From: a virus
Taxonomy: Duplodnaviria; Heunggongvirae; Uroviricota; Caudoviricetes
DNA: 10,948 nucleotides
Reading direction: 5' to 3' (one strand)
IMG/VR virus record: IMGVR_UViG_3300039313_000009
Position numbers and translations under genes: made by a program. Within the stretch, counting starts at the first letter, position 1; each line of letters starts with the position of its first letter. Under the pieces are notes generated by a model, which was not told the origin of the DNA, made no database searches, and saw only the letters and a list, made by a program, of their open reading frames with translations. Below, in pieces: positions 1 through 9,040 of this stretch.

Positions 1-94
1 CAAGGCATTTACGGGAGAAAAAATCGGCTCAAACATGAAGAAATGAAATGACTGAGTCAGCCGAGAAGAATTTCCCCGCTTATTCGCACCTTCC
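1..94 (+). mobile_element. IS5-type insertion sequence, terminal 94 bp of the transposase-distal end (terminal inverted repeat at 79..94); element body lies upstream of the window
   Basis: Bases 1..94 match from memory the 3' end of IS5, ending in cttattcgcaccttcc (reverse complement of the IS5 terminal repeat GGAAGGTGCGAATAAG). Bases 20..94 are a perfect reverse complement of 10874..10948. The flanking tetranucleotide CTAG (95..98) fits the IS5 YTAR target preference. Confidence 0.8.
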
Positions 95-111
95 CTAGAG
101 GCGGACGTTTT

Positions 112-1848
112 GTGGCAGAAGCTGTCGTTAAAGCTTTCAGCAGTGCGATCAAAGAAGGTTTTATCGAATATGAAAAACCATTCCTGATTGAGAGTGTTAC
201 GGATATCATAGGATCTGAGAGTGTTCAGGAATGTTTAAAATACCTTTCCGAACATGATAAGGTATTGACTATTTTCTTTGATCAGTTCGAAGAAGTCTTT
301 ATGAAAGAGGAACTATTCGGGCTATTTAAAGAATTTGAACGATTCGCACTCGATGTCTCGGCACTACAAAGCAATTTAGTTGTAGGGTTCTCATGGAGAA
401 CTGGTATTACTTTAGGGGATGAAAATCCAGCGTACTCAATGTGGAATCGGCTAAAAGATTATAGGGTTGAAAAGAAACTTGAGCCTTTTGATCTAAAAGA
501 TTCATCTAAATTAATTAATAGTTTCGAGCTAAATACAGGGTTTAAATTAAATAAACCTTTACGCACGCGTCTTATTCAGCAAGCTCAAGGTTATCCATGG
601 TTATTGAAAAAGCTTTGTATTCATGTATTCAAAAAACTAAAAGGAGGTATCTCACAGGATCAAATGTTGGTTAGTCAACTACAGATCTCAAATTTATTTC
701 ATGAGGATTTAGATAGGCCTGAAAAACAAAATTCATGTTTAAAATTTGTGGCAAAGAACTCTCCGATTAGTCAATATGAAGTTACTAAAGAGTTTGGGAG
801 TGATACTGTTTTAGAGCTAATTTCAGATAGGATGGTAATTAAAACAGGTGAAAAATTATCAGTGTATTGGGACGTTTTTCGAGATTACTTGAAAGGAAAT
901 GACCTTCCAGTTATACCATGGTCATATATGCCATCAACATCTCCGAAAATGGTTTTGTTAATTCTTGATGTTGTAAACTCGTTCAAAACCATTAGCTTGG
1001 ATGAACTGCAAACTAAACTAAAATATAGTCGGGGAACATTAATAAATGTTTTAATGGATTTGCAGTATTTTGTTCTCATAGACAGAGATTTAAATGGGAA
1101 TATAGTTTGTAAACAGACTATCACAAATGTCCCTGAGTTTCTTCGTGAGCATTTTAAGAGTCATAGTGTTTTGTTAGAATTGGCAGAGAATATTGTTGAT
1201 GCCGATTTAAGAAGAGTTCCTATCGATAAGTATGAATCTATAATAGCCCATACTTATAAGAATAAAGACGGTGGTTATCCTAAGTCTTATAGTTCAAAAT
1301 TATTGGCTTGGTTACAATTTACGGGGCTGATAGCGGTTATCGGGAAATCTGTGGTTATATATGATGGCGAGTTGTTTTCCCCAGCATTTGGGGCGATTGA
1401 TCTAGATAAAAGAGGGGCACGCAATAGAAGAGGATCACTTTTCTTAGCTGCTACTTCGCCAGAAAAAACACTCGAAGTTGCCGAGTATCTGTGCGCCAAT
1501 AAAAAAATGAGCCATTCATTCATTCAGGCGAATAAACATAGGAATGCAGTGCAGGATTTAATTTCTTTAGGTTTTTGTTCTCGACAAGATGATGGTGTGG
1601 TGATAAATAATAAAATAGAAGTTATATTAGAAAGCATCAGCCTTGAAAGGGCTTTAGCTAGGTTAGTCACTGAATCTCCAGCTATCAAAATATTAAATGC
1701 TTATGTAAATAAATTTGGCGATGATGATAAGAAAATGATGGGGGCAGCACTAGCAAAAGAACTTGAGAGAACATGGACACCTGCATCTACTACTAGATAT
1801 ATTTATGCACTAATGAGATATCGAAATTTCGCATTGGAAACTTTATAA
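112..1848 (+). CDS. STAND/AAA+-like NTPase, 5'-truncated fragment (IS5-disrupted; probably a pseudogene); winged-helix-like C-terminal region
   Basis: 578-aa ORF with Walker-B-like VLTIFFDQFEE near its start and a GxP-like QGYPWLL motif further on, but no P-loop anywhere. The reading frame stays open upstream of the GTG at 112 right through the IS5 junction (first in-frame stop at 49..51), so the P-loop region is expected to have been removed by the insertion. Stop TAA at 1846..1848. Confidence 0.5.
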   Translation: MAEAVVKAFSSAIKEGFIEYEKPFLIESVTDIIGSESVQECLKYLSEHDKVLTIFFDQFEEVFMKEELFGLFKEFERFALDVSALQSNLVVGFSWRTGITLGDENPAYSMWNRLKDYRVEKKLEPFDLKDSSKLINSFELNTGFKLNKPLRTRLIQQAQGYPWLLKKLCIHVFKKLKGGISQDQMLVSQLQISNLFHEDLDRPEKQNSCLKFVAKNSPISQYEVTKEFGSDTVLELISDRMVIKTGEKLSVYWDVFRDYLKGNDLPVIPWSYMPSTSPKMVLLILDVVNSFKTISLDELQTKLKYSRGTLINVLMDLQYFVLIDRDLNGNIVCKQTITNVPEFLREHFKSHSVLLELAENIVDADLRRVPIDKYESIIAHTYKNKDGGYPKSYSSKLLAWLQFTGLIAVIGKSVVIYDGELFSPAFGAIDLDKRGARNRRGSLFLAATSPEKTLEVAEYLCANKKMSHSFIQANKHRNAVQDLISLGFCSRQDDGVVINNKIEVILESISLERALARLVTESPAIKILNAYVNKFGDDDKKMMGAALAKELERTWTPASTTRYIYALMRYRNFALETL

Positions 1849-1857
1849 TTATTAAAT

Positions 1858-1877
1858 CATAGGGCGAAAGCCCTATG
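1858..1877. terminator. Bidirectional hairpin between convergent genes (NTPase fragment and integrase)
   Basis: Perfect 8-bp stem catagggc / gccctatg with gaaa loop, followed by a T-rich tract on the plus strand; it overlaps the integrase stop codon. Confidence 0.55.
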
Positions 1878-3060
1878 ATTTTACTTTTATACCCCACCAT
1901 GACATCAATTCTCTGCGTTGTTCTAAATAAATAGAACGATTATACGCCCGCCGTACTTCATTTTTATCTATATGCGCTAAAGCTGATTCTATAATATCGG
2001 AATTAAAACCAGACTCGTTCAACGCTGTGCTAGCTATAGAACGAAGCCCATGAGCAACGAGTTTACCGCCATAACCAATCCTTTTAAGAGCAGCATTAGC
2101 AGTTTGGCTATTCATAGGTTGTTTAGGATCATTCCTGCTGGGAAAAACATGTTCTCGGTGAGCGCTAATTGGCTTCATTACATCCAGAATCTCTAATGCC
2201 TGTGGTGATAAAGGAACAATGTGTTCCCGCTTAGCTTTCATCCGTTCGGCTGGAATAGTCCAGAGCTTCGTATCGAGATCGATCTCTGCCCAACGGGCAC
2301 CAGAGGCCTCAGAAGGGCGCACGAGCGTCAGGAGTTGCCATTCAATGAGACAGCGAGTCGGAACAGACAGATTTGACATGACTAAAGAACGCATCAGCTT
2401 CGGCAATTCTTCTGGCCGCAGCGTCGGCATGTTTTGTTTTTTGGGCTTCTCAAAGGCCATTCCAATACCTGATGCTGGATTGGCATCAATCAGACCAGTG
2501 TTTACGGCATAAATCATTATCTCGTTAATACGCTGCACTAGTCGACGTACAGTCTCAAGCGCTCCACGAGCTTTGATTGGTTCCAATGCTTCAACTAATA
2601 TTCGGGCTTTAATTTGCTGAACGGGGATCTCACCGATGGCAGGGAATACATCTTTCTCCAATGAGCGCCAAATGTCTTTTGCGTAATCAGGGGTAACGCT
2701 TTTACTTTTGAGCTGGAACCAGTTAGCGGCGACCATTGAGAAAATACTGTCCAGAGCGATTTGCTGCTGTTCCTCTGCAACTTCGGCCTGAATTTGTGGG
2801 TCAATTCCGTTGGCTAACAAGGCAAGGTAATCCGCTCTTAACCCTCGGGCGTCAGCAAGTGAAAGGGCGGGGAAAGCACCAAGCCCCATCATTGTCCGCT
2901 GTTTTGTCGCTGGACGTTGATAACGGAAACGCCAGAGCTTTTTCCCGCTGGTTTTCACTATCAGGAAAAGGCCATCGCCATCATGCAGAGTTAGATCCTT
3001 CTCTAACGCTTTAGCGCGAAGAACTTCGGTGTTGGTAAGGGGGCGTGTTGTCCGTGCCAC
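1873..3060 (-). CDS. int: P4-type tyrosine integrase (IntA/CP4-57-like family)
   Basis: 395-aa ORF. N-terminus MARTTRPLT..DGDGLFL..SGKKLWRFRY is typical of P4-like integrases; C-terminus has HGLRS and ALAH..VRRAYNRS motifs consistent with the tyrosine-recombinase active site. It lies about 185 bp downstream of an ssrA 3'-end repeat in the same orientation, as for ssrA/tRNA-associated islands. Confidence 0.9.
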   Translation of the reverse strand: MARTTRPLTNTEVLRAKALEKDLTLHDGDGLFLIVKTSGKKLWRFRYQRPATKQRTMMGLGAFPALSLADARGLRADYLALLANGIDPQIQAEVAEEQQQIALDSIFSMVAANWFQLKSKSVTPDYAKDIWRSLEKDVFPAIGEIPVQQIKARILVEALEPIKARGALETVRRLVQRINEIMIYAVNTGLIDANPASGIGMAFEKPKKQNMPTLRPEELPKLMRSLVMSNLSVPTRCLIEWQLLTLVRPSEASGARWAEIDLDTKLWTIPAERMKAKREHIVPLSPQALEILDVMKPISAHREHVFPSRNDPKQPMNSQTANAALKRIGYGGKLVAHGLRSIASTALNESGFNSDIIESALAHIDKNEVRRAYNRSIYLEQRRELMSWWGIKVKS

Positions 3061-3083
3061 TGTGGCCGCTCCTTCATGAATTG

Positions 3084-3129
3084 GTATACGCTTTTAGGTA
3101 TACATCCTACCGTATACCTAAACGTATAC
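3084..3129. repeat. Array of four GTATAC(C) motifs with 12-14 bp periodicity, directly upstream of the P4-type integrase start; candidate arm-type or regulatory sites
   Basis: GTATAC at 3084, 3098, 3112 and 3124; the last two copies are CGTATACC within a near-direct repeat. Confidence 0.4.
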
Positions 3130-3172
3130 CAATAATCACCGGATTTAGCCGGATGTTCTCGGACAACGACAG

Positions 3173-3214
3173 ACACAAAAAAGCCCGCAGGGCTTGTGCC
3201 ATGCGGGCTTTCTG
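3173..3214 (-). terminator. Rho-independent terminator on the minus strand (GC hairpin followed by a U-run), between the ssrA-derived repeat and the integrase
   Basis: Plus-strand aagcccgcagggctt (3181..3195) and alternative pairing gcccgca / tgcgggc (3183..3189 with 3202..3208). On the minus strand the hairpin is followed by TTTTTTGTG (complement of 3173..3180). Confidence 0.5.
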
Positions 3215-3245
3215 TACTTCACCGGACGTATCCGGATCATGATTT

Positions 3246-3275
3246 GGTGGAGCTGGCGGGAGTTGAACCCGCGTT
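3246..3275 (-). other. Attachment-site repeat: the 3'-terminal ~30 nt of the tmRNA gene ssrA (T-arm, acceptor 3' strand and CCA), without the rest of the gene
   Basis: The reverse complement of 3246..3275 reads acgcgggttcaactcccgccagctccacca, matching from memory the 3' end of E. coli ssrA. Sequence beyond 3275 shows no tmRNA-like continuation, so this is a partial copy (att direct repeat), not a functional gene. Confidence 0.75.
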
Positions 3276-3330
3276 CTATTAATGGTAAATAACTGTAATT
3301 TATAGCTTTTATTTGAAGTAGATCACATGC

Positions 3331-3377
3331 GTATCCTTTGTGGATACTTGAGGTATATGTTATATATAAAACATATA
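3331..3377. promoter_or_regulatory. AT-rich promoter region of the DarT-like operon with two palindromes (candidate operators)
   Basis: gtatcc-N5-ggatac at 3331..3347 and tatatgtt-N8-aacatata at 3354..3377, sitting 25-70 bp upstream of the ATG at 3403 among TATA-like hexamers. Confidence 0.4.
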
Positions 3378-3402
3378 TTTACATGAAGTAAATGGATGTT
3401 TT

Positions 3403-4026
3403 ATGACAATACAGGAAATAATTCAGCAACGTAATATTCGTAGCTTGTTTCATTTTACACATAGCGATAATCTAACTTCCATTTTAGATAATGGCCTTAT
3501 GTCTCGTTCAGAACTTGATAATGAAAATAATGAATATAATTATAATGATGAAGAAAGGATTGATGGTCATCCAGATGCGATTTGTTTGTCCGTAAGTTAC
3601 CCTAATGCAAAAATGTTTTATAAATATAGATGTTTAAAGCCTGGGGGCTGGGTTATATTAGAAATCAATCCATCTGTTCTTTGGGCTAAGGATTGCGCTT
3701 TTTATCCTACCAACGCAGCTTCGAATAACGTTCGTTTTATAAATATTGATTTGATGAAAGGAGCTGAGGCATTTAGTGCTTTGTTTTCAGAGAATGTTTT
3801 TGGGATTCAGAGAGATGTAAACCTTCCAAGTGAGTATACGACGGATGTTCAAGCTGAAATACTGGTATTTGAAAAAATTCCTCCCTCATATATTATAAGC
3901 ACTTTTCACCCTAACAAAGAATCTGCTGAACATTTCAAGAGATTATATCCACAGACAATACAGAGATCTTATGATAATCTTAATGCTAGAACATTTTATT
4001 CTCAGAGGCATTATTATTTAGGATAA
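3403..4026 (+). CDS. darT: DarT-like DNA ADP-ribosyltransferase toxin (DUF4433-type)
   Basis: 207 aa. LFHFTHSDNLTSILDNGL (residues 15-32) parallels the recalled DarT N-terminal motif (for example LFHITHMDNLPSILTSGL); QAEILVF (150-156) parallels the catalytic-glutamate motif; central CAFYPTNAASNNVRF resembles the conserved mid-region. AT-rich codon usage unlike the flanking prophage genes. Confidence 0.7.
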   Translation: MTIQEIIQQRNIRSLFHFTHSDNLTSILDNGLMSRSELDNENNEYNYNDEERIDGHPDAICLSVSYPNAKMFYKYRCLKPGGWVILEINPSVLWAKDCAFYPTNAASNNVRFINIDLMKGAEAFSALFSENVFGIQRDVNLPSEYTTDVQAEILVFEKIPPSYIISTFHPNKESAEHFKRLYPQTIQRSYDNLNARTFYSQRHYYLG

Positions 4027-4029
4027 GTT

Positions 4030-4719
4030 ATGGCCGTTAGACCTGTTTTCGTCCCTACAAACGCAGGGAACTTACTATCGATCACGAAGGATGTGGATTT
4101 TCCTTGGGCTCCTGGTATGTCTAAAACGCAAAAGCAAAAATCGATCAGGGCGTTACATACAGCAGCGAATGAGCAGGGATTGAACTCTTTGTTGGAAATT
4201 TCTAGTAAATCCGAAGATGCGCTGGGGGTAGCACTTAGTGCATTTAATCTAAGAATAAAGACGAAAAGACTTGGGAAAGAGTTTACAGTTGAATCTGCAT
4301 TTCAAGCAAGTAAAGTATTTGAAATGGGAGGACCATATGTCGATATCTTAGATAAAAGCTCGATAGAAGCAAAAAAAGATATGAGATTAAAGGAATCTGG
4401 GGGATTAGTTAACTTCAAATTTTATAATACAATATGGCCCATTGTCCCCAGGACTGCTTTTTATGATTGGTTATATTTGAGTGCGCTCAATCAAAACAAA
4501 AATCTAGCACTCCATCTATTAAATTTTGATGGATTTACTGATATTGAATTTAATCCAGCGAAATCTATTAATTGCCAAGCCAGAGCAGCTGCACTTTTTG
4601 TCTCTTTAGTAAGACGAAATATGTTAGATGATGTTTTATCTTCAAAGGATGGTTTTTTATCAAAATTAGCATCTCATTATGGTGTTGAAAATTATTCTAT
4701 TCAACATACATTGATATGA
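4030..4719 (+). CDS. Operon partner of the DarT-like gene: NADAR-like (YbiA/DUF1768-type) candidate ADP-ribosyl hydrolase antitoxin; no macrodomain signature
   Basis: 229 aa. Translationally coupled (3-nt gap, AGGA Shine-Dalgarno overlapping the upstream stop). LSAF..KEFTVESAFQASKVF aligns by eye with the YbiA motif FSNF..WPTSEHYFQAQKF, followed by SSIEAKKDM versus SSPMVAARM and a W...L..LL region. No DarG-like glycine-rich macrodomain motifs are visible. Confidence 0.5.
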   Translation: MAVRPVFVPTNAGNLLSITKDVDFPWAPGMSKTQKQKSIRALHTAANEQGLNSLLEISSKSEDALGVALSAFNLRIKTKRLGKEFTVESAFQASKVFEMGGPYVDILDKSSIEAKKDMRLKESGGLVNFKFYNTIWPIVPRTAFYDWLYLSALNQNKNLALHLLNFDGFTDIEFNPAKSINCQARAAALFVSLVRRNMLDDVLSSKDGFLSKLASHYGVENYSIQHTLI

Positions 4720-4721
4720 AT

Positions 4722-4745
4722 AATGGCCTGTAAAGGCCATTTTTA
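4722..4745. terminator. Bidirectional terminator hairpin between the DarT-like operon and the convergent lambdoid integrase
   Basis: Stem aatggcct / aggccatt with gtaa loop, followed by TTTT on the plus strand. Confidence 0.6.
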
Positions 4746-4751
4746 TCTAAA

Positions 4752-5921
4752 TTAATATCTATTTTTTCTATTTAAAGATGTATTTCCATCATATTCTTTG
4801 AGGTATGAGCCATAATGTCTAAATAACATCTCTGGTCCTTTATGACCCATTTGAACCGCAAGCCAAAACAGGTTTGCTCCCCGGCTGATATGGCTGGTGG
4901 CGAATGTATGTCTGGTTTGATATGGGTTTCTGTAACGAATACCTGCTTTCCGCAATGTTGGCACCCATGCTTTTTTTCTAATTGCATCAGCACTTGCCCA
5001 AGGCTTATTGGTCTTTGGATCTTCAAAGACTGTAGCATCCTTCATGAATGTAAATGGCTTCTGATTTATCAGCGCCAACATTGCATCTTCTGTCAGTTCA
5101 ACTTTACGAGTACCGGCTTTTGTCTTTGTTCCTTTGATAACACCGACAACACTTGCGCTCTGGACATGGGCAGTTTTTCCAACAAAGTCGATATCACGCC
5201 ATCGAAGGGCACATAATTCAGAACTACGCAGGCCTGTATGTATAGCGAACCGGAACAGATTCTCCCATTGTTTGTTTCCGGCTGCTGCTAGTAATGCATC
5301 AACTTCTGCTGGTGATAGCGGATCAACCACGTAGCTGCTTTCTGCTTCTGACTTATCACTTTGGTAGCGCGAAGCAGTTACCAACGATACGGGGTTAATT
5401 TGAAGTACCCCATCGGTTACGGCTTCATCAAGTGCTGACCGCAGGAAAGATAACTGGTTGCGAATTGTTTTTAAGGTCGTTTTCTGGCTTTGAATCCACG
5501 CTTTCAGGATTGCTGGTGTTAATTCACTTGCAGGGCAAATGTGGAGTGAGGCTAACGCACTACGGCATTTTTTATAACCACCAATCGTAGATGGTGAAAG
5601 TTTTCTCGTTTCGCAGATTTCAAGGTATTCGTCCAGGTACATTTTTACCGTTTTGCCTGCAGCAGCATTACCAAAAATTTTCAAACGAGCAGAACGGGGA
5701 AAATATTCCGCATAAATGAATGTTCCCCTTTCGATCTTATTATGAATTTCGCCGAGTGTGCGCTCGGCGTATTTAATGTTCTTTGGTGTTACTTCCAGAT
5801 TGGAAAGAGGCTCACGACATCTAACTCCTTTGTAGGTGAAAGTTATATTGATCGTTTCGCCCTGGCGGTGTTTCCTGATTGTTACGCCGCGCGGTAGTTT
5901 GAGCAGTTTTGTCTGGCCCAT
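4752..5921 (-). CDS. int: Lambdoid-type tyrosine integrase with an N-terminal arm-binding domain
   Basis: 389 aa. C-terminal motifs TRHTFAT, MGH and FRHYGSYL fit the R-H-R-Y tyrosine-recombinase active site. The N-terminus (KLPRGVTIRKH..ITFTYKGVRCRE) is arm-binding-like. GAGG Shine-Dalgarno 8 nt upstream; its 5' end overlaps the xis-like gene. Confidence 0.9.
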   Translation of the reverse strand: MGQTKLLKLPRGVTIRKHRQGETINITFTYKGVRCREPLSNLEVTPKNIKYAERTLGEIHNKIERGTFIYAEYFPRSARLKIFGNAAAGKTVKMYLDEYLEICETRKLSPSTIGGYKKCRSALASLHICPASELTPAILKAWIQSQKTTLKTIRNQLSFLRSALDEAVTDGVLQINPVSLVTASRYQSDKSEAESSYVVDPLSPAEVDALLAAAGNKQWENLFRFAIHTGLRSSELCALRWRDIDFVGKTAHVQSASVVGVIKGTKTKAGTRKVELTEDAMLALINQKPFTFMKDATVFEDPKTNKPWASADAIRKKAWVPTLRKAGIRYRNPYQTRHTFATSHISRGANLFWLAVQMGHKGPEMLFRHYGSYLKEYDGNTSLNRKNRY

Positions 5922-6088
5922 TTTGCAACCTCACTAAGATCAATCCACCTCTCCTTAACGCCTTCAACCTTTAAAACCTGAACACCTTCACGCCAAACAC
6001 CGCGCTGTACACGTTTGTTTATTGCTTCAGGAGTTTCGCCAGTTTCTTTGCAATAAGTTGAGATTGGAACACAATCGAGGTTCAGCAT
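5882..6088 (-). CDS. xis: Excisionase-like small DNA-binding protein (recombination directionality factor); start reassigned to ATG 6088 (the ORF track begins at GTG 6100)
   Basis: About 68 aa, immediately upstream of and overlapping the integrase 5' end, as is typical for xis-int pairs. GGAG Shine-Dalgarno 7 nt upstream of ATG 6088. Basic, helix-turn-helix-like composition. Confidence 0.55.
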   Translation of the reverse strand: MLNLDCVPISTYCKETGETPEAINKRVQRGVWREGVQVLKVEGVKERWIDLSEVAKWARQNCSNYRAA

Positions 6089-6147
6089 ATGTTTCTCCAC
6101 TTAGCCCGCTGCACACGGGCAGTAATATCAAATTCCAGTCCTGATAA

Positions 6148-8650: not shown

Positions 8651-8900
8651 CGACCCTGCAAGGTCGGTTGGTTTCTCCACAAAACAGAGAAGAACACCTG
8701 CGGTGGCAGCCGCCCGGATGGATTGGGTTATGAGCCCGTCGTCCGGTGATGCTCTTCTCTGTTTTGCAAAAAAGGACGGTACCAGCCGGAAGCAAGGGTA
8801 CAAACTGGTACCGCCAGGACTACACACAGCATAAAGTTGTGGTGCCGGGTGCCTCCCGGTGCCTGGCGAAGGTTGCACACCAGGCGGGTGGGTATCCACA
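8651..8900. other. GC-rich, hairpin-dense non-coding block (candidate structured RNA, recombination site or gene remnant) in the divergent intergenic region
   Basis: 14-bp long-range inverted repeat caaaacagagaaga (8680..8693) / tcttctctgttttg (8754..8767) enclosing about 60 nt; hairpins cgacc..ggtcg (8651..8666), ccggg-tgcct-cccgg (8845..8859) and gcctgg-N13-ccaggc (8861..8885); GGTACC repeated at 8779 and 8807. Overlapping ORFs here are Pro/Gly/Arg-rich and look spurious. Confidence 0.35.
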
Positions 8901-9040
8901 GAAGGTCGACTGTCAGCCTCAACCTTAACCCGCGTGCGCTGAGCCGCATTCACCACAACGCTAAGGATTCTCTCTGGTTGAAAATACTTAGCTGTTATGT
9001 GCCTGCTTTTAGCCACATCAGGCGAGGTGGACCTGGTTAT

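What the first reader, a model, noticed from the sequence alone, without database searches (positions are those of the whole stretch)
3246..3275. A single ssrA 3'-end repeat shared by two integrase-bearing elements
Only the last ~30 nt of tmRNA are present. On one side is a P4-type integrase in the position expected for an ssrA island; on the other, after a 1.3-kb cargo insert, is the 3' end of a lambdoid integrase. This looks like the internal junction of two elements integrated in tandem at ssrA, with the intact ssrA gene expected outside the window. Such arrays can mobilise cargo between elements.
Basis: partly seen in the sequence, partly recalled or inferred. Interest (0 to 1): 0.55.

Follow-up and report, generated by a model that had tools for sequence, protein, structure and literature searches.

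The report
Shared ssrA junction of two prophages
The 30-base piece of the tmRNA gene is the ordinary boundary left where a phiNP-like temperate phage integrated into the tmRNA gene in front of an already resident P4-like satellite, an arrangement that is common in E. coli and already well described.

Summary
Window 3245-3274 (- strand), one base off the stated coordinates, is an exact copy of the last 30 nt of E. coli ssrA, and the window contains no intact tmRNA gene.

The interpretation also holds. The fragment is the junction of two independent integrative elements:
- **Satellite side.** A rho-independent terminator, GGTATAC repeats and a P4-type integrase (62% identical to K-12 IntA) belong to a P4-like satellite. 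In 385 of 5426 complete E. coli genomes this same block is fused directly to an intact ssrA.
- **Phage side.** A DarT/NADAR (DarTG1) cassette, then an integrase and excisionase each 92% identical to those of Citrobacter phage phiNP. The experimentally mapped 25-bp att site of phiNP equals window 3245-3269.

In the two closest relatives the intact ssrA lies 31 and 41 kb away, at the far end of the prophage. Each element also occurs alone. The source genome itself was not found, so its own ssrA could not be checked.

Tandem arrays at the tmRNA gene, phiNP integration, P4-like satellites and DarTG1 are all published. The suggestion that the array moves cargo between elements has no support here. 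This is an ordinary, already known feature of low interest.

The parts
1..94 (.). Terminal 94 nt of an IS5 copy, ending in the inverted repeat ...CTTATTCGCACCTTCC, followed by the target CTAG. It interrupts the satellite's nSTAND1 NTPase gene.
   Evidence: Window 95-3274 is 100% identical to EC1722-1, but 1-94 is not. Bases 1-94 match 2316 plasmid records at up to 100% and lie just downstream of an annotated IS5 transposase. The reading frame has a stop before 112.
95..1848 (+). 3' part of an nSTAND1-domain NTPase gene (913 aa when intact). It is the cargo of the P4-like satellite between psu and int, here truncated by IS5.
   Evidence: It is identical to the annotated gene in EC1722-1. Precomputed Pfam hits on the intact protein are nSTAND1 and a weak Mrr_cat. 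GC is 0.353.
1873..3060 (-). P4-type tyrosine integrase of the satellite, a relative of IntA.
   Evidence: Pfam finds Arm-DNA-bind_3, Phage_int_M and Phage_integrase. NCBIfam PRK09692 scores 591 bits. It is 62% identical to K-12 IntA of CP4-57.
3083..3135 (.). Four GGTATAC/GTATACC repeats (two direct, two inverted) between the integrase start and the terminator. They are probably arm-type binding sites of the satellite integrase.
   Evidence: The sequence was read. The same motif pair lies at the satellite's far end in EC1722-1 (L003 6450-6475). Their function is inferred.
3177..3215 (-). Rho-independent terminator supplied by the satellite for the ssrA gene it rebuilt.
   Evidence: The terminator scan finds a stem plus T-run at 3195-3181. 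The region is 79% identical to the K-12 ssrA-intA spacer and identical in all genomes that carry this satellite.
3245..3274 (-). Displaced last 30 nt of ssrA, the shared att junction. Bases 3245-3269 are the 25-bp phiNP att core.
   Evidence: It matches ssrA 30/30. The phiNP attP/attB sequence TGGTGGAGCTGGCGGGAGTTGAACC is published in PMC6456863.
3275..4751 (+). Variable cargo slot of the phiNP-like prophage, between the att core and the integrase 3' end. GC is 0.337. A hairpin at 4722-4741 follows the cassette.
   Evidence: Identity with EC1722-1 stops exactly at 3274/3275 and resumes at 4775. Other phiNP-like phages carry other genes in this slot.
3403..4026 (+). DarT1 toxin, a DNA ADP-ribosyltransferase.
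   Evidence: Pfam DarT, E = 4e-23. PADLOC DarT. It is 98% identical to E. coli C7 DarT1.
4030..4719 (+). DarG1, the NADAR-family antitoxin.
   Evidence: Pfam NADAR-DarT1, E = 1.4e-89. It is 100% identical to the E. coli C7 NADAR.
4752..5921 (-). Integrase of the phiNP-like prophage. The gene is complete and its 3' end faces the att fragment.
   Evidence: Pfam finds Arm-DNA-bind_2 and Phage_integrase. It is 92% identical to phiNP Int.
5882..6100 (-). Excisionase of the phiNP-like prophage.
   Evidence: It is 92% identical to the annotated phiNP Xis.

Best explanation
The 30-nt ssrA fragment is an att junction shared by two independent integrative elements.

**Step 1, satellite integration.** A P4-like satellite integrated into the 3' end of ssrA using its P4-type tyrosine integrase. 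Its attP carried a replacement ssrA 3' end and its own terminator, so the gene stayed functional.

**Step 2, phage integration.** A phiNP-like temperate phage then recombined its 25-bp core with that rebuilt 3' end. The phage brought a fresh 3' end and a downstream arm with a terminator for the gene. The satellite-supplied 3' end was pushed about 30-40 kb downstream, where it now lies between the phage's integrase-proximal cargo (DarTG1) and the satellite's terminator and integrase.

**Consequence.** The fragment is at once the integrase-proximal junction of the phage and the ssrA-proximal junction of the satellite. Each integrase should still be able to excise its own element by recombining this copy with the other copy of its own core.

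**Shown or inferred.** The sequence identities, the layout, the independent occurrence of each element and the order of insertion are shown. Present-day excision activity in the source strain is inferred.
For: - **Exact match.** The fragment is a 30/30 match to ssrA and includes the published 25-bp phiNP att core.
- **Phage identity.** Int and Xis are each 92% identical to those of phiNP, which lysogenises E. coli K-12 at ssrA. K-12 already carries the P4-like CP4-57 at that site, so the same tandem has been made experimentally.
- **Satellite block.** The block from 2900 to 3274 is present in 441 of 5426 complete E. coli genomes. In 385 of them it is fused to an intact ssrA, and one of these is 100% identical to the reconstructed pre-insertion site.
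- **Intact ssrA in relatives.** It lies at the far end of the prophage, on the same strand, in AR_0369 and EC1722-1.
- **Third copy.** A degenerate ssrA fragment plus the native flank lies at the satellite's far end, next to ypjA, in EC1722-1.
- **Phage alone.** ECONIH4 carries the phage without the satellite.
- **Satellite behind other elements.** The same satellite block follows other upstream elements, and the length of the retained fragment depends on which one: 30-34 nt behind phiNP-like phages, 45 nt behind a P2/186-like prophage, about 10-15 nt behind an AlpA/H-NS island.
- **Sharp boundary.** Window 95-3274 is 100% identical to EC1722-1, and identity stops exactly at the inner edge of the fragment.
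Against: - The source genome was not found, so its intact ssrA, the far ends of both elements and their completeness are unknown.
- The satellite's cargo gene is cut by IS5, and the closest relative's prophage carries several IS insertions. Decay is therefore plausible.
- No conserved arm between the core and the phage integrase is recognisable across phiNP-like variants. How the integrase assembles on this side is not established.
Confidence: 0.9

Rival explanations
1. Fossil junction. The layout arose as described, but one or both elements are now immobile remnants, so the fragment is only a scar and no longer serves as an att site.
For: IS5 has disrupted the satellite's nSTAND1 gene. In AR_0369 the homologous prophage carries IS1 and IS4 insertions and a truncated terminase, and the satellite there has lost its primase end. 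In strain H2 only a remnant of the phage remains. The far-end ssrA fragments of the satellite are degenerate, with a 5-nt deletion.
Against: Within the window both integrase genes and the excisionase are intact ORFs, and the 25-bp core is perfect. EC1722-1 has an apparently complete prophage and satellite. phiNP itself is an active phage.
Confidence: 0.35
2. One composite island carrying two integrases that moves as a unit, rather than two separate elements.
For: The two integrase genes lie only 1.7 kb apart with one repeat between them. Excision between the outermost repeats is conceivable.
Against: Each half occurs alone or with other partners, and the breakpoints fall exactly at the fragment. 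The outermost repeat in a relative is degenerate within the phiNP core.
Confidence: 0.03
3. The 30-mer is a chance match, or an ssrA pseudogene truncated by a deletion or by insertion of the cargo.
For: No intact tmRNA gene is present in the window.
Against: The match is 30/30, in conserved synteny, with the published att core at its end. An intact ssrA is present elsewhere in the locus in relatives. All 5426 complete E. coli genomes matched the query whose second half is the ssrA body.
Confidence: 0.01

Closest known systems
Tandem arrays of integrative islands at tRNA/tmRNA genes (Islander, Hudson et al. 2015, PMC4383910; Williams 2003, 'Traffic at the tmRNA gene', cited there but not readable here)
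   Same: An intact target gene is followed by elements that each have their own tyrosine integrase and their own displaced 3' fragment. The tmRNA gene is reported as the most enriched target, and 125 tandems were found among 3919 islands. Different integrases leave fragments of different length, as seen.
   Different: Nothing of substance. Only the internal junction lies in the window; the two outer copies are seen in relatives only.
Citrobacter phage phiNP (Magaziner et al. 2019, PMC6456863; GenBank OR565852)
   Same: Int and Xis are 92% identical, the 25-bp att core is the same, and the order integrase - cargo - core is the same. Both carry a conserved downstream arm with a terminator on the other side of the core. 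phiNP integrated in K-12 produces the same tandem with a P4-like element.
   Different: The cargo in the slot differs: DarTG1 here, an AAA ATPase plus an unannotated ORF in phiNP. Int-xis DNA identity is only about 84%. The virion genes of the source phage lie outside the window.
CP4-57 of E. coli K-12 and P4-like satellites
   Same: The order is the ssrA 3' end, a terminator, then a P4-type integrase in the ssrA direction. The integrase is 62% identical to IntA and the spacer 79% identical. Relatives whose sequence is 100% identical to the window's satellite part carry psu, ogr/delta, sid, icd-like, derepression and primase genes.
   Different: It is a different integrase lineage from IntA. 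The psu-int slot holds an nSTAND1 NTPase, here broken by IS5. In the window only the integrase and the cargo fragment are visible.
DarTG1 toxin-antitoxin phage-defence system of E. coli C7 (Schuller et al. 2023, PMC11543638)
   Same: DarT1 is 98% and the NADAR antitoxin 100% identical. In strain C7 the operon sits in the same slot, between a phiNP-like integrase and the ssrA fragment.
   Different: There are five amino-acid differences in DarT1. Activity of this copy was not tested.

Membership tests
Tandem island array at a tDNA (Islander criteria) | Fragment identical to the 3' end of the target gene and in the same orientation as the intact gene | tested here: met
   The identity is 30/30. 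The fragment is on the same strand as the intact ssrA in AR_0369 and EC1722-1. Orientation in the source genome is inferred.
Tandem island array at a tDNA (Islander criteria) | Each element has its own integrase gene | tested here: met
   Two different tyrosine integrases, with distinct arm-binding domains (PF13356 versus PF12167), flank the fragment.
Tandem island array at a tDNA (Islander criteria) | Each element has its own displaced fragment, with an intact gene at the head of the array | tested here: inconclusive
   This is met in EC1722-1, which has an intact ssrA (L006 19999-20361), the fragment at L003 18151-18180 and a degenerate fragment near L003 6373-6400. The source genome was not available.
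phiNP-like temperate phage | Integrase and excisionase homologous to those of phiNP | tested here: met
   Both are 92% identical at the amino-acid level.
phiNP-like temperate phage | att core TGGTGGAGCTGGCGGGAGTTGAACC at the integrase-proximal end | tested here: met
   Window 3245-3269 is identical to the published 25-mer.
phiNP-like temperate phage | Myovirus virion module and an inducible, infectious phage | not testable with these tools
   The structural genes lie outside the window. Relatives have an HK97-type head and a sheathed tail. Induction needs an experiment.
P4-like satellite | P4-type integrase next to the att site | tested here: met
   Domain architecture and NCBIfam PRK09692; 62% identical to IntA.
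P4-like satellite | psu, delta/ogr, sid, epsilon/derepression and alpha primase genes | tested here: inconclusive
   These lie outside the window. They are present in EC1722-1 and other loci whose sequence is 100% identical to window 95-3274.
DarTG1 | DarT-family ADP-ribosyltransferase followed by a DarT1-associated NADAR antitoxin in one operon | tested here: met
   Pfam PF14487 and PF22397 are both above their cut-offs, and the genes are 3 nt apart. They are 98% and 100% identical to the characterised C7 proteins.
DarTG1 | Guanine ADP-ribosylation, its reversal, and phage defence | not testable with these tools
   These were shown for the C7 proteins in the literature and are inferred here from near-identity.

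The most novel reading that the evidence does not exclude
The most novel reading not excluded concerns the slot between the att core and the phiNP-like integrase. This slot could be an exchangeable defence-cassette site. Cassettes would be swapped by one integrase-mediated crossover at the shared ssrA core, between elements sitting in tandem at ssrA, plus one homologous crossover in the integrase 3' end. That would explain why cassette boundaries fall exactly at the core edge (3274/3275) and about 25 nt inside the integrase gene (about 4775).
Probability: 0.15. Interest if true: 0.4.

Novelty: already known. Interest (0 to 1): 0.12.

Why it matters
It matters little beyond correct annotation. 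It places the experimentally used DarTG1 system in the integrase-to-att cargo slot of a phiNP-like prophage at ssrA. It also illustrates how the tmRNA gene collects defence-carrying mobile elements in series. For a genome scan, the practical lesson is that a lone 3' tDNA fragment between two integrase genes is the expected signature of a tandem array, not an anomaly.

Tried and rejected
- **Source genome.** I looked for it so that its own ssrA could be read. No complete E. coli genome covers 80% or more of the window. An exact 49-mer across the fragment/cargo junction has no hit in the species-representative genomes. It has one hit in IMG/VR, which is only 97% identical and lacks the satellite.
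- **Integrase look-up.** An exact look-up of the satellite integrase returned nine contexts, none with the IS5 plus DarTG combination.
- **PADLOC.** It gave no hit for the NADAR antitoxin or the nSTAND1 fragment, and only a marginal DndF hit for the intact NTPase.
- **Arm-type sites of the phiNP-like integrase.** A k-mer search on the cargo side was mostly AT-rich noise. One 12-mer, and loosely similar ATACG-containing motifs 60-90 nt from the core, are suggestive only.
- **Rfam IsrM hit at 3177-3254.** It is not an IsrM gene. It scores 39 bits against a gathering score of 376 and aligns only the ssrA-derived 5' end and the terminator.
- **Literature.** Williams 2003 (PMC142792) is not held, and LeRoux et al. 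2022 was not found in the library.

Full report
**Observation.** Window 3245-3274 reads TGGTGGAGCTGGCGGGAGTTGAACCCGCGT. Its reverse complement is the last 30 nt of the annotated E. coli ssrA, a 30/30 match.

**Anatomy, read in the ssrA direction (the - strand).**
- Upstream of the fragment lie phage early genes (YfdP/Q/R-type), an excisionase (6100-5882) and a tyrosine integrase (5921-4752).
- Next, on the opposite strand, comes a low-GC (0.337) two-gene cassette: DarT (3403-4026) and a DarT1-associated NADAR antitoxin (4030-4719).
- Immediately after the fragment come a short spacer and a rho-independent terminator (stem and T-run at 3195-3181).
- Four GGTATAC/GTATACC repeats follow at 3083-3135.
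- Then comes a P4-type integrase (3060-1873; PF13356 + PF22022 + PF00589; NCBIfam PRK09692, 591 bits).
- Beyond it is the 3' part of an nSTAND1 NTPase gene (95-1848), cut at position 94/95 by an IS5 end with the usual CTAG target.

**The element on the integrase/terminator side.**
- The fragment-terminator-integrase layout mirrors ssrA-intA of K-12 CP4-57. The spacer is 79% identical and the integrase 62% identical.
- Window 95-3274 is 100% identical to E. coli EC1722-1. There the integrase belongs to a complete P4-like satellite with the nSTAND1 NTPase, psu, ogr/delta, sid, icd-like, derepression and primase genes.
- At the satellite's far end EC1722-1 has the same GTATACC motif pair, a degenerate ssrA fragment (TTCAAACTCCGCCAG-----CCAATCATGAT), and the flank that also follows the CP4-57 right end in K-12, next to ypjA.
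- Of 5426 complete E. coli genomes, 441 carry the block 2900-3274. A chimeric query joining that block to the ssrA body is covered in 385 of them. One (STEC346) is 100% identical, which is the pre-insertion state.
- The satellite therefore supplies its own ssrA 3' end and terminator, and the fragment in the window is that satellite-supplied end.

**The element on the cargo side.**
- The integrase and excisionase are each 92% identical to those of Citrobacter phage phiNP.
- The phiNP record ends, on the integrase/cargo side, with the ssrA 3' end.
- Its published, experimentally confirmed attP/attB is the 25-mer TGGTGGAGCTGGCGGGAGTTGAACC, which equals window 3245-3269.
- phiNP lysogenises E. coli K-12 at ssrA (PMC6456863). 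K-12 already has CP4-57 there, so the same kind of tandem has been made in the laboratory.
- In AR_0369, which shares the DarTG/satellite junction, and in EC1722-1 the prophage runs for 31 and 41 kb to an intact ssrA on the same strand, next to smpB.
- That ssrA is followed by an arm of about 170 bp with a terminator. The arm is conserved in the phiNP genome too, so it is phage-borne.

**The two elements are independent.**
- The DarTG-carrying phage occurs alone next to the native flank and ypjA in ECONIH4. It occurs next to a different P4-type-integrase island in strains H2 and C7.
- The identical satellite junction is found directly behind an intact ssrA, behind phiNP-like phages with other cargo, behind a P2/186-like prophage, and behind an AlpA/H-NS island.
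- The retained ssrA fragment is 30-34, 45 and about 10-15 nt long respectively in the last three cases. This fits different integrases cutting at different positions in the gene.
- Identity between the window and EC1722-1 stops exactly at 3274/3275 and resumes at 4775, inside the integrase 3' end.

**Mechanism.**
- *Shown:* the order of events was satellite first, then phage, because the fragment is followed by the satellite's terminator and not by the native flank.
- *Inferred from the tyrosine-integrase paradigm and the phiNP experiments:* the phage integrase recombined its 25-bp core with the rebuilt ssrA 3' end. This regenerated the gene with phage DNA and displaced the old end. Either element could excise by recombining its own pair of cores.
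- *Not established:* whether both are still active in the source strain. IS5 in the satellite cargo and IS-ridden relatives show that decay happens.

**Comparison with what is known.**
- Islander (PMC4383910) defines exactly this signature and resolves tandem arrays in which each island has its own integrase and fragment. It reports 125 tandems among 3919 islands and the tmRNA gene as the most enriched target.
- phiNP, P4-like satellites including CP4-57, and DarTG1 are all published.
- The DarT and NADAR proteins here are 98% and 100% identical to the E. coli C7 proteins used to define DarTG1 biochemistry. In C7 the operon sits in the same slot.

**What is not supported.** Nothing here shows cargo moving between the two elements. 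The cargo slot of phiNP-like phages is variable: DarTG1; RloB plus an AAA ATPase; a three-gene set including DUF4325; and an AAA ATPase in phiNP. That is variation among related phages, not exchange with the satellite.

**Limits.** The source genome was not found, so the intact ssrA and the outer repeats are inferred from close relatives.

**Verdict.** The feature is an ordinary, already described kind of junction and is of low interest.

Noticed in passing
window 1-94 and 95-1848: An IS5 end (terminal repeat, then a CTAG target) interrupts the nSTAND1-domain NTPase gene that fills the psu-int cargo slot of the P4-like satellite. The intact 913-aa protein has a weak Mrr_cat hit plus nSTAND1 and looks like a defence candidate. 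PADLOC has no model for it.
   Followed up: partly
window 3403-4719; L020 4243-5559: The cargo is DarTG1. DarT is 98% and the NADAR antitoxin 100% identical to the E. coli C7 proteins used in the published biochemistry. In C7 the operon lies in the same slot, between a phiNP-like integrase and the ssrA fragment, followed by a broken P4-type integrase.
   Followed up: yes
window 3275-4775; L003 18181-20460; L015 7762-9632; L009 31-2877: The stretch from the att core edge to about 25 nt inside the integrase 3' end is a variable cassette slot among phiNP-like prophages. It holds DarTG1, RloB plus an AAA ATPase, a three-gene set with DUF4325, or an AAA ATPase plus an unannotated ORF. There is no overall homology between the cassettes.
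   Followed up: partly
L002 10170-10343; L022 26-200; L005 1487-1650; L003 6233-6385: phiNP-like phages carry, on the far side of the core, a conserved arm of about 130-170 bp. It is homologous to the sequence that follows the last displaced ssrA fragment next to ypjA in K-12 and EC1722-1. Whether the phage copied the host flank or the host flank is an old phage arm is open.
   Followed up: partly
window 3328-3339 (inverted repeat 3330-3350); L002 10243-10254: The 12-mer TGCGTATCCTTT occurs about 55-65 nt from the core on the cargo side and about 90 nt from the ssrA end in the phage's other arm. Other cassette variants have loosely similar ATACG motifs 60-90 nt from the core. These may be arm-type integrase sites, but the statistics are weak.
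   Followed up: partly
window 3083-3135; L003 6450-6475: GGTATAC/GTATACC repeats flank both ends of the P4-like satellite. They are probably arm-type sites of its integrase.
   Followed up: partly
L003 6373-6400; L007 about 5995-6025; L001 20246-20275: Displaced ssrA fragments decay. The copies next to the native flank lack CTCCA in EC1722-1 and ECONIH4. The AR_0369 copy of the window's fragment lacks one A.
   Followed up: partly
L011 7405-9816; L012/L017/L018 9780-9830: The same satellite lies behind a P2/186-like prophage (a possible helper) with a 45-nt ssrA fragment. In other genomes it lies behind an AlpA/H-NS island with only about 10-15 nt of ssrA. At least three integrase specificities therefore use different positions in the ssrA 3' end.
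   Followed up: partly
window 3177-3254 (-) and 8766-8989 (-): Both are Rfam matches below threshold. IsrM (39 bits against a gathering score of 376) aligns only the ssrA-derived start and the terminator. STnc100 (40.3 bits against 47, E = 4.7e-6) lies in the phage early region and may be a real prophage sRNA homologue.
   Followed up: no
L002 4637-10109; L006 14793-19764: The ssrA-proximal end of the phiNP-like prophages in E. coli carries further accessory genes: a type II restriction endonuclease with a cytosine methyltransferase, a GIY-YIG protein, and an acyltransferase or ClpP-like protease.
   Followed up: no
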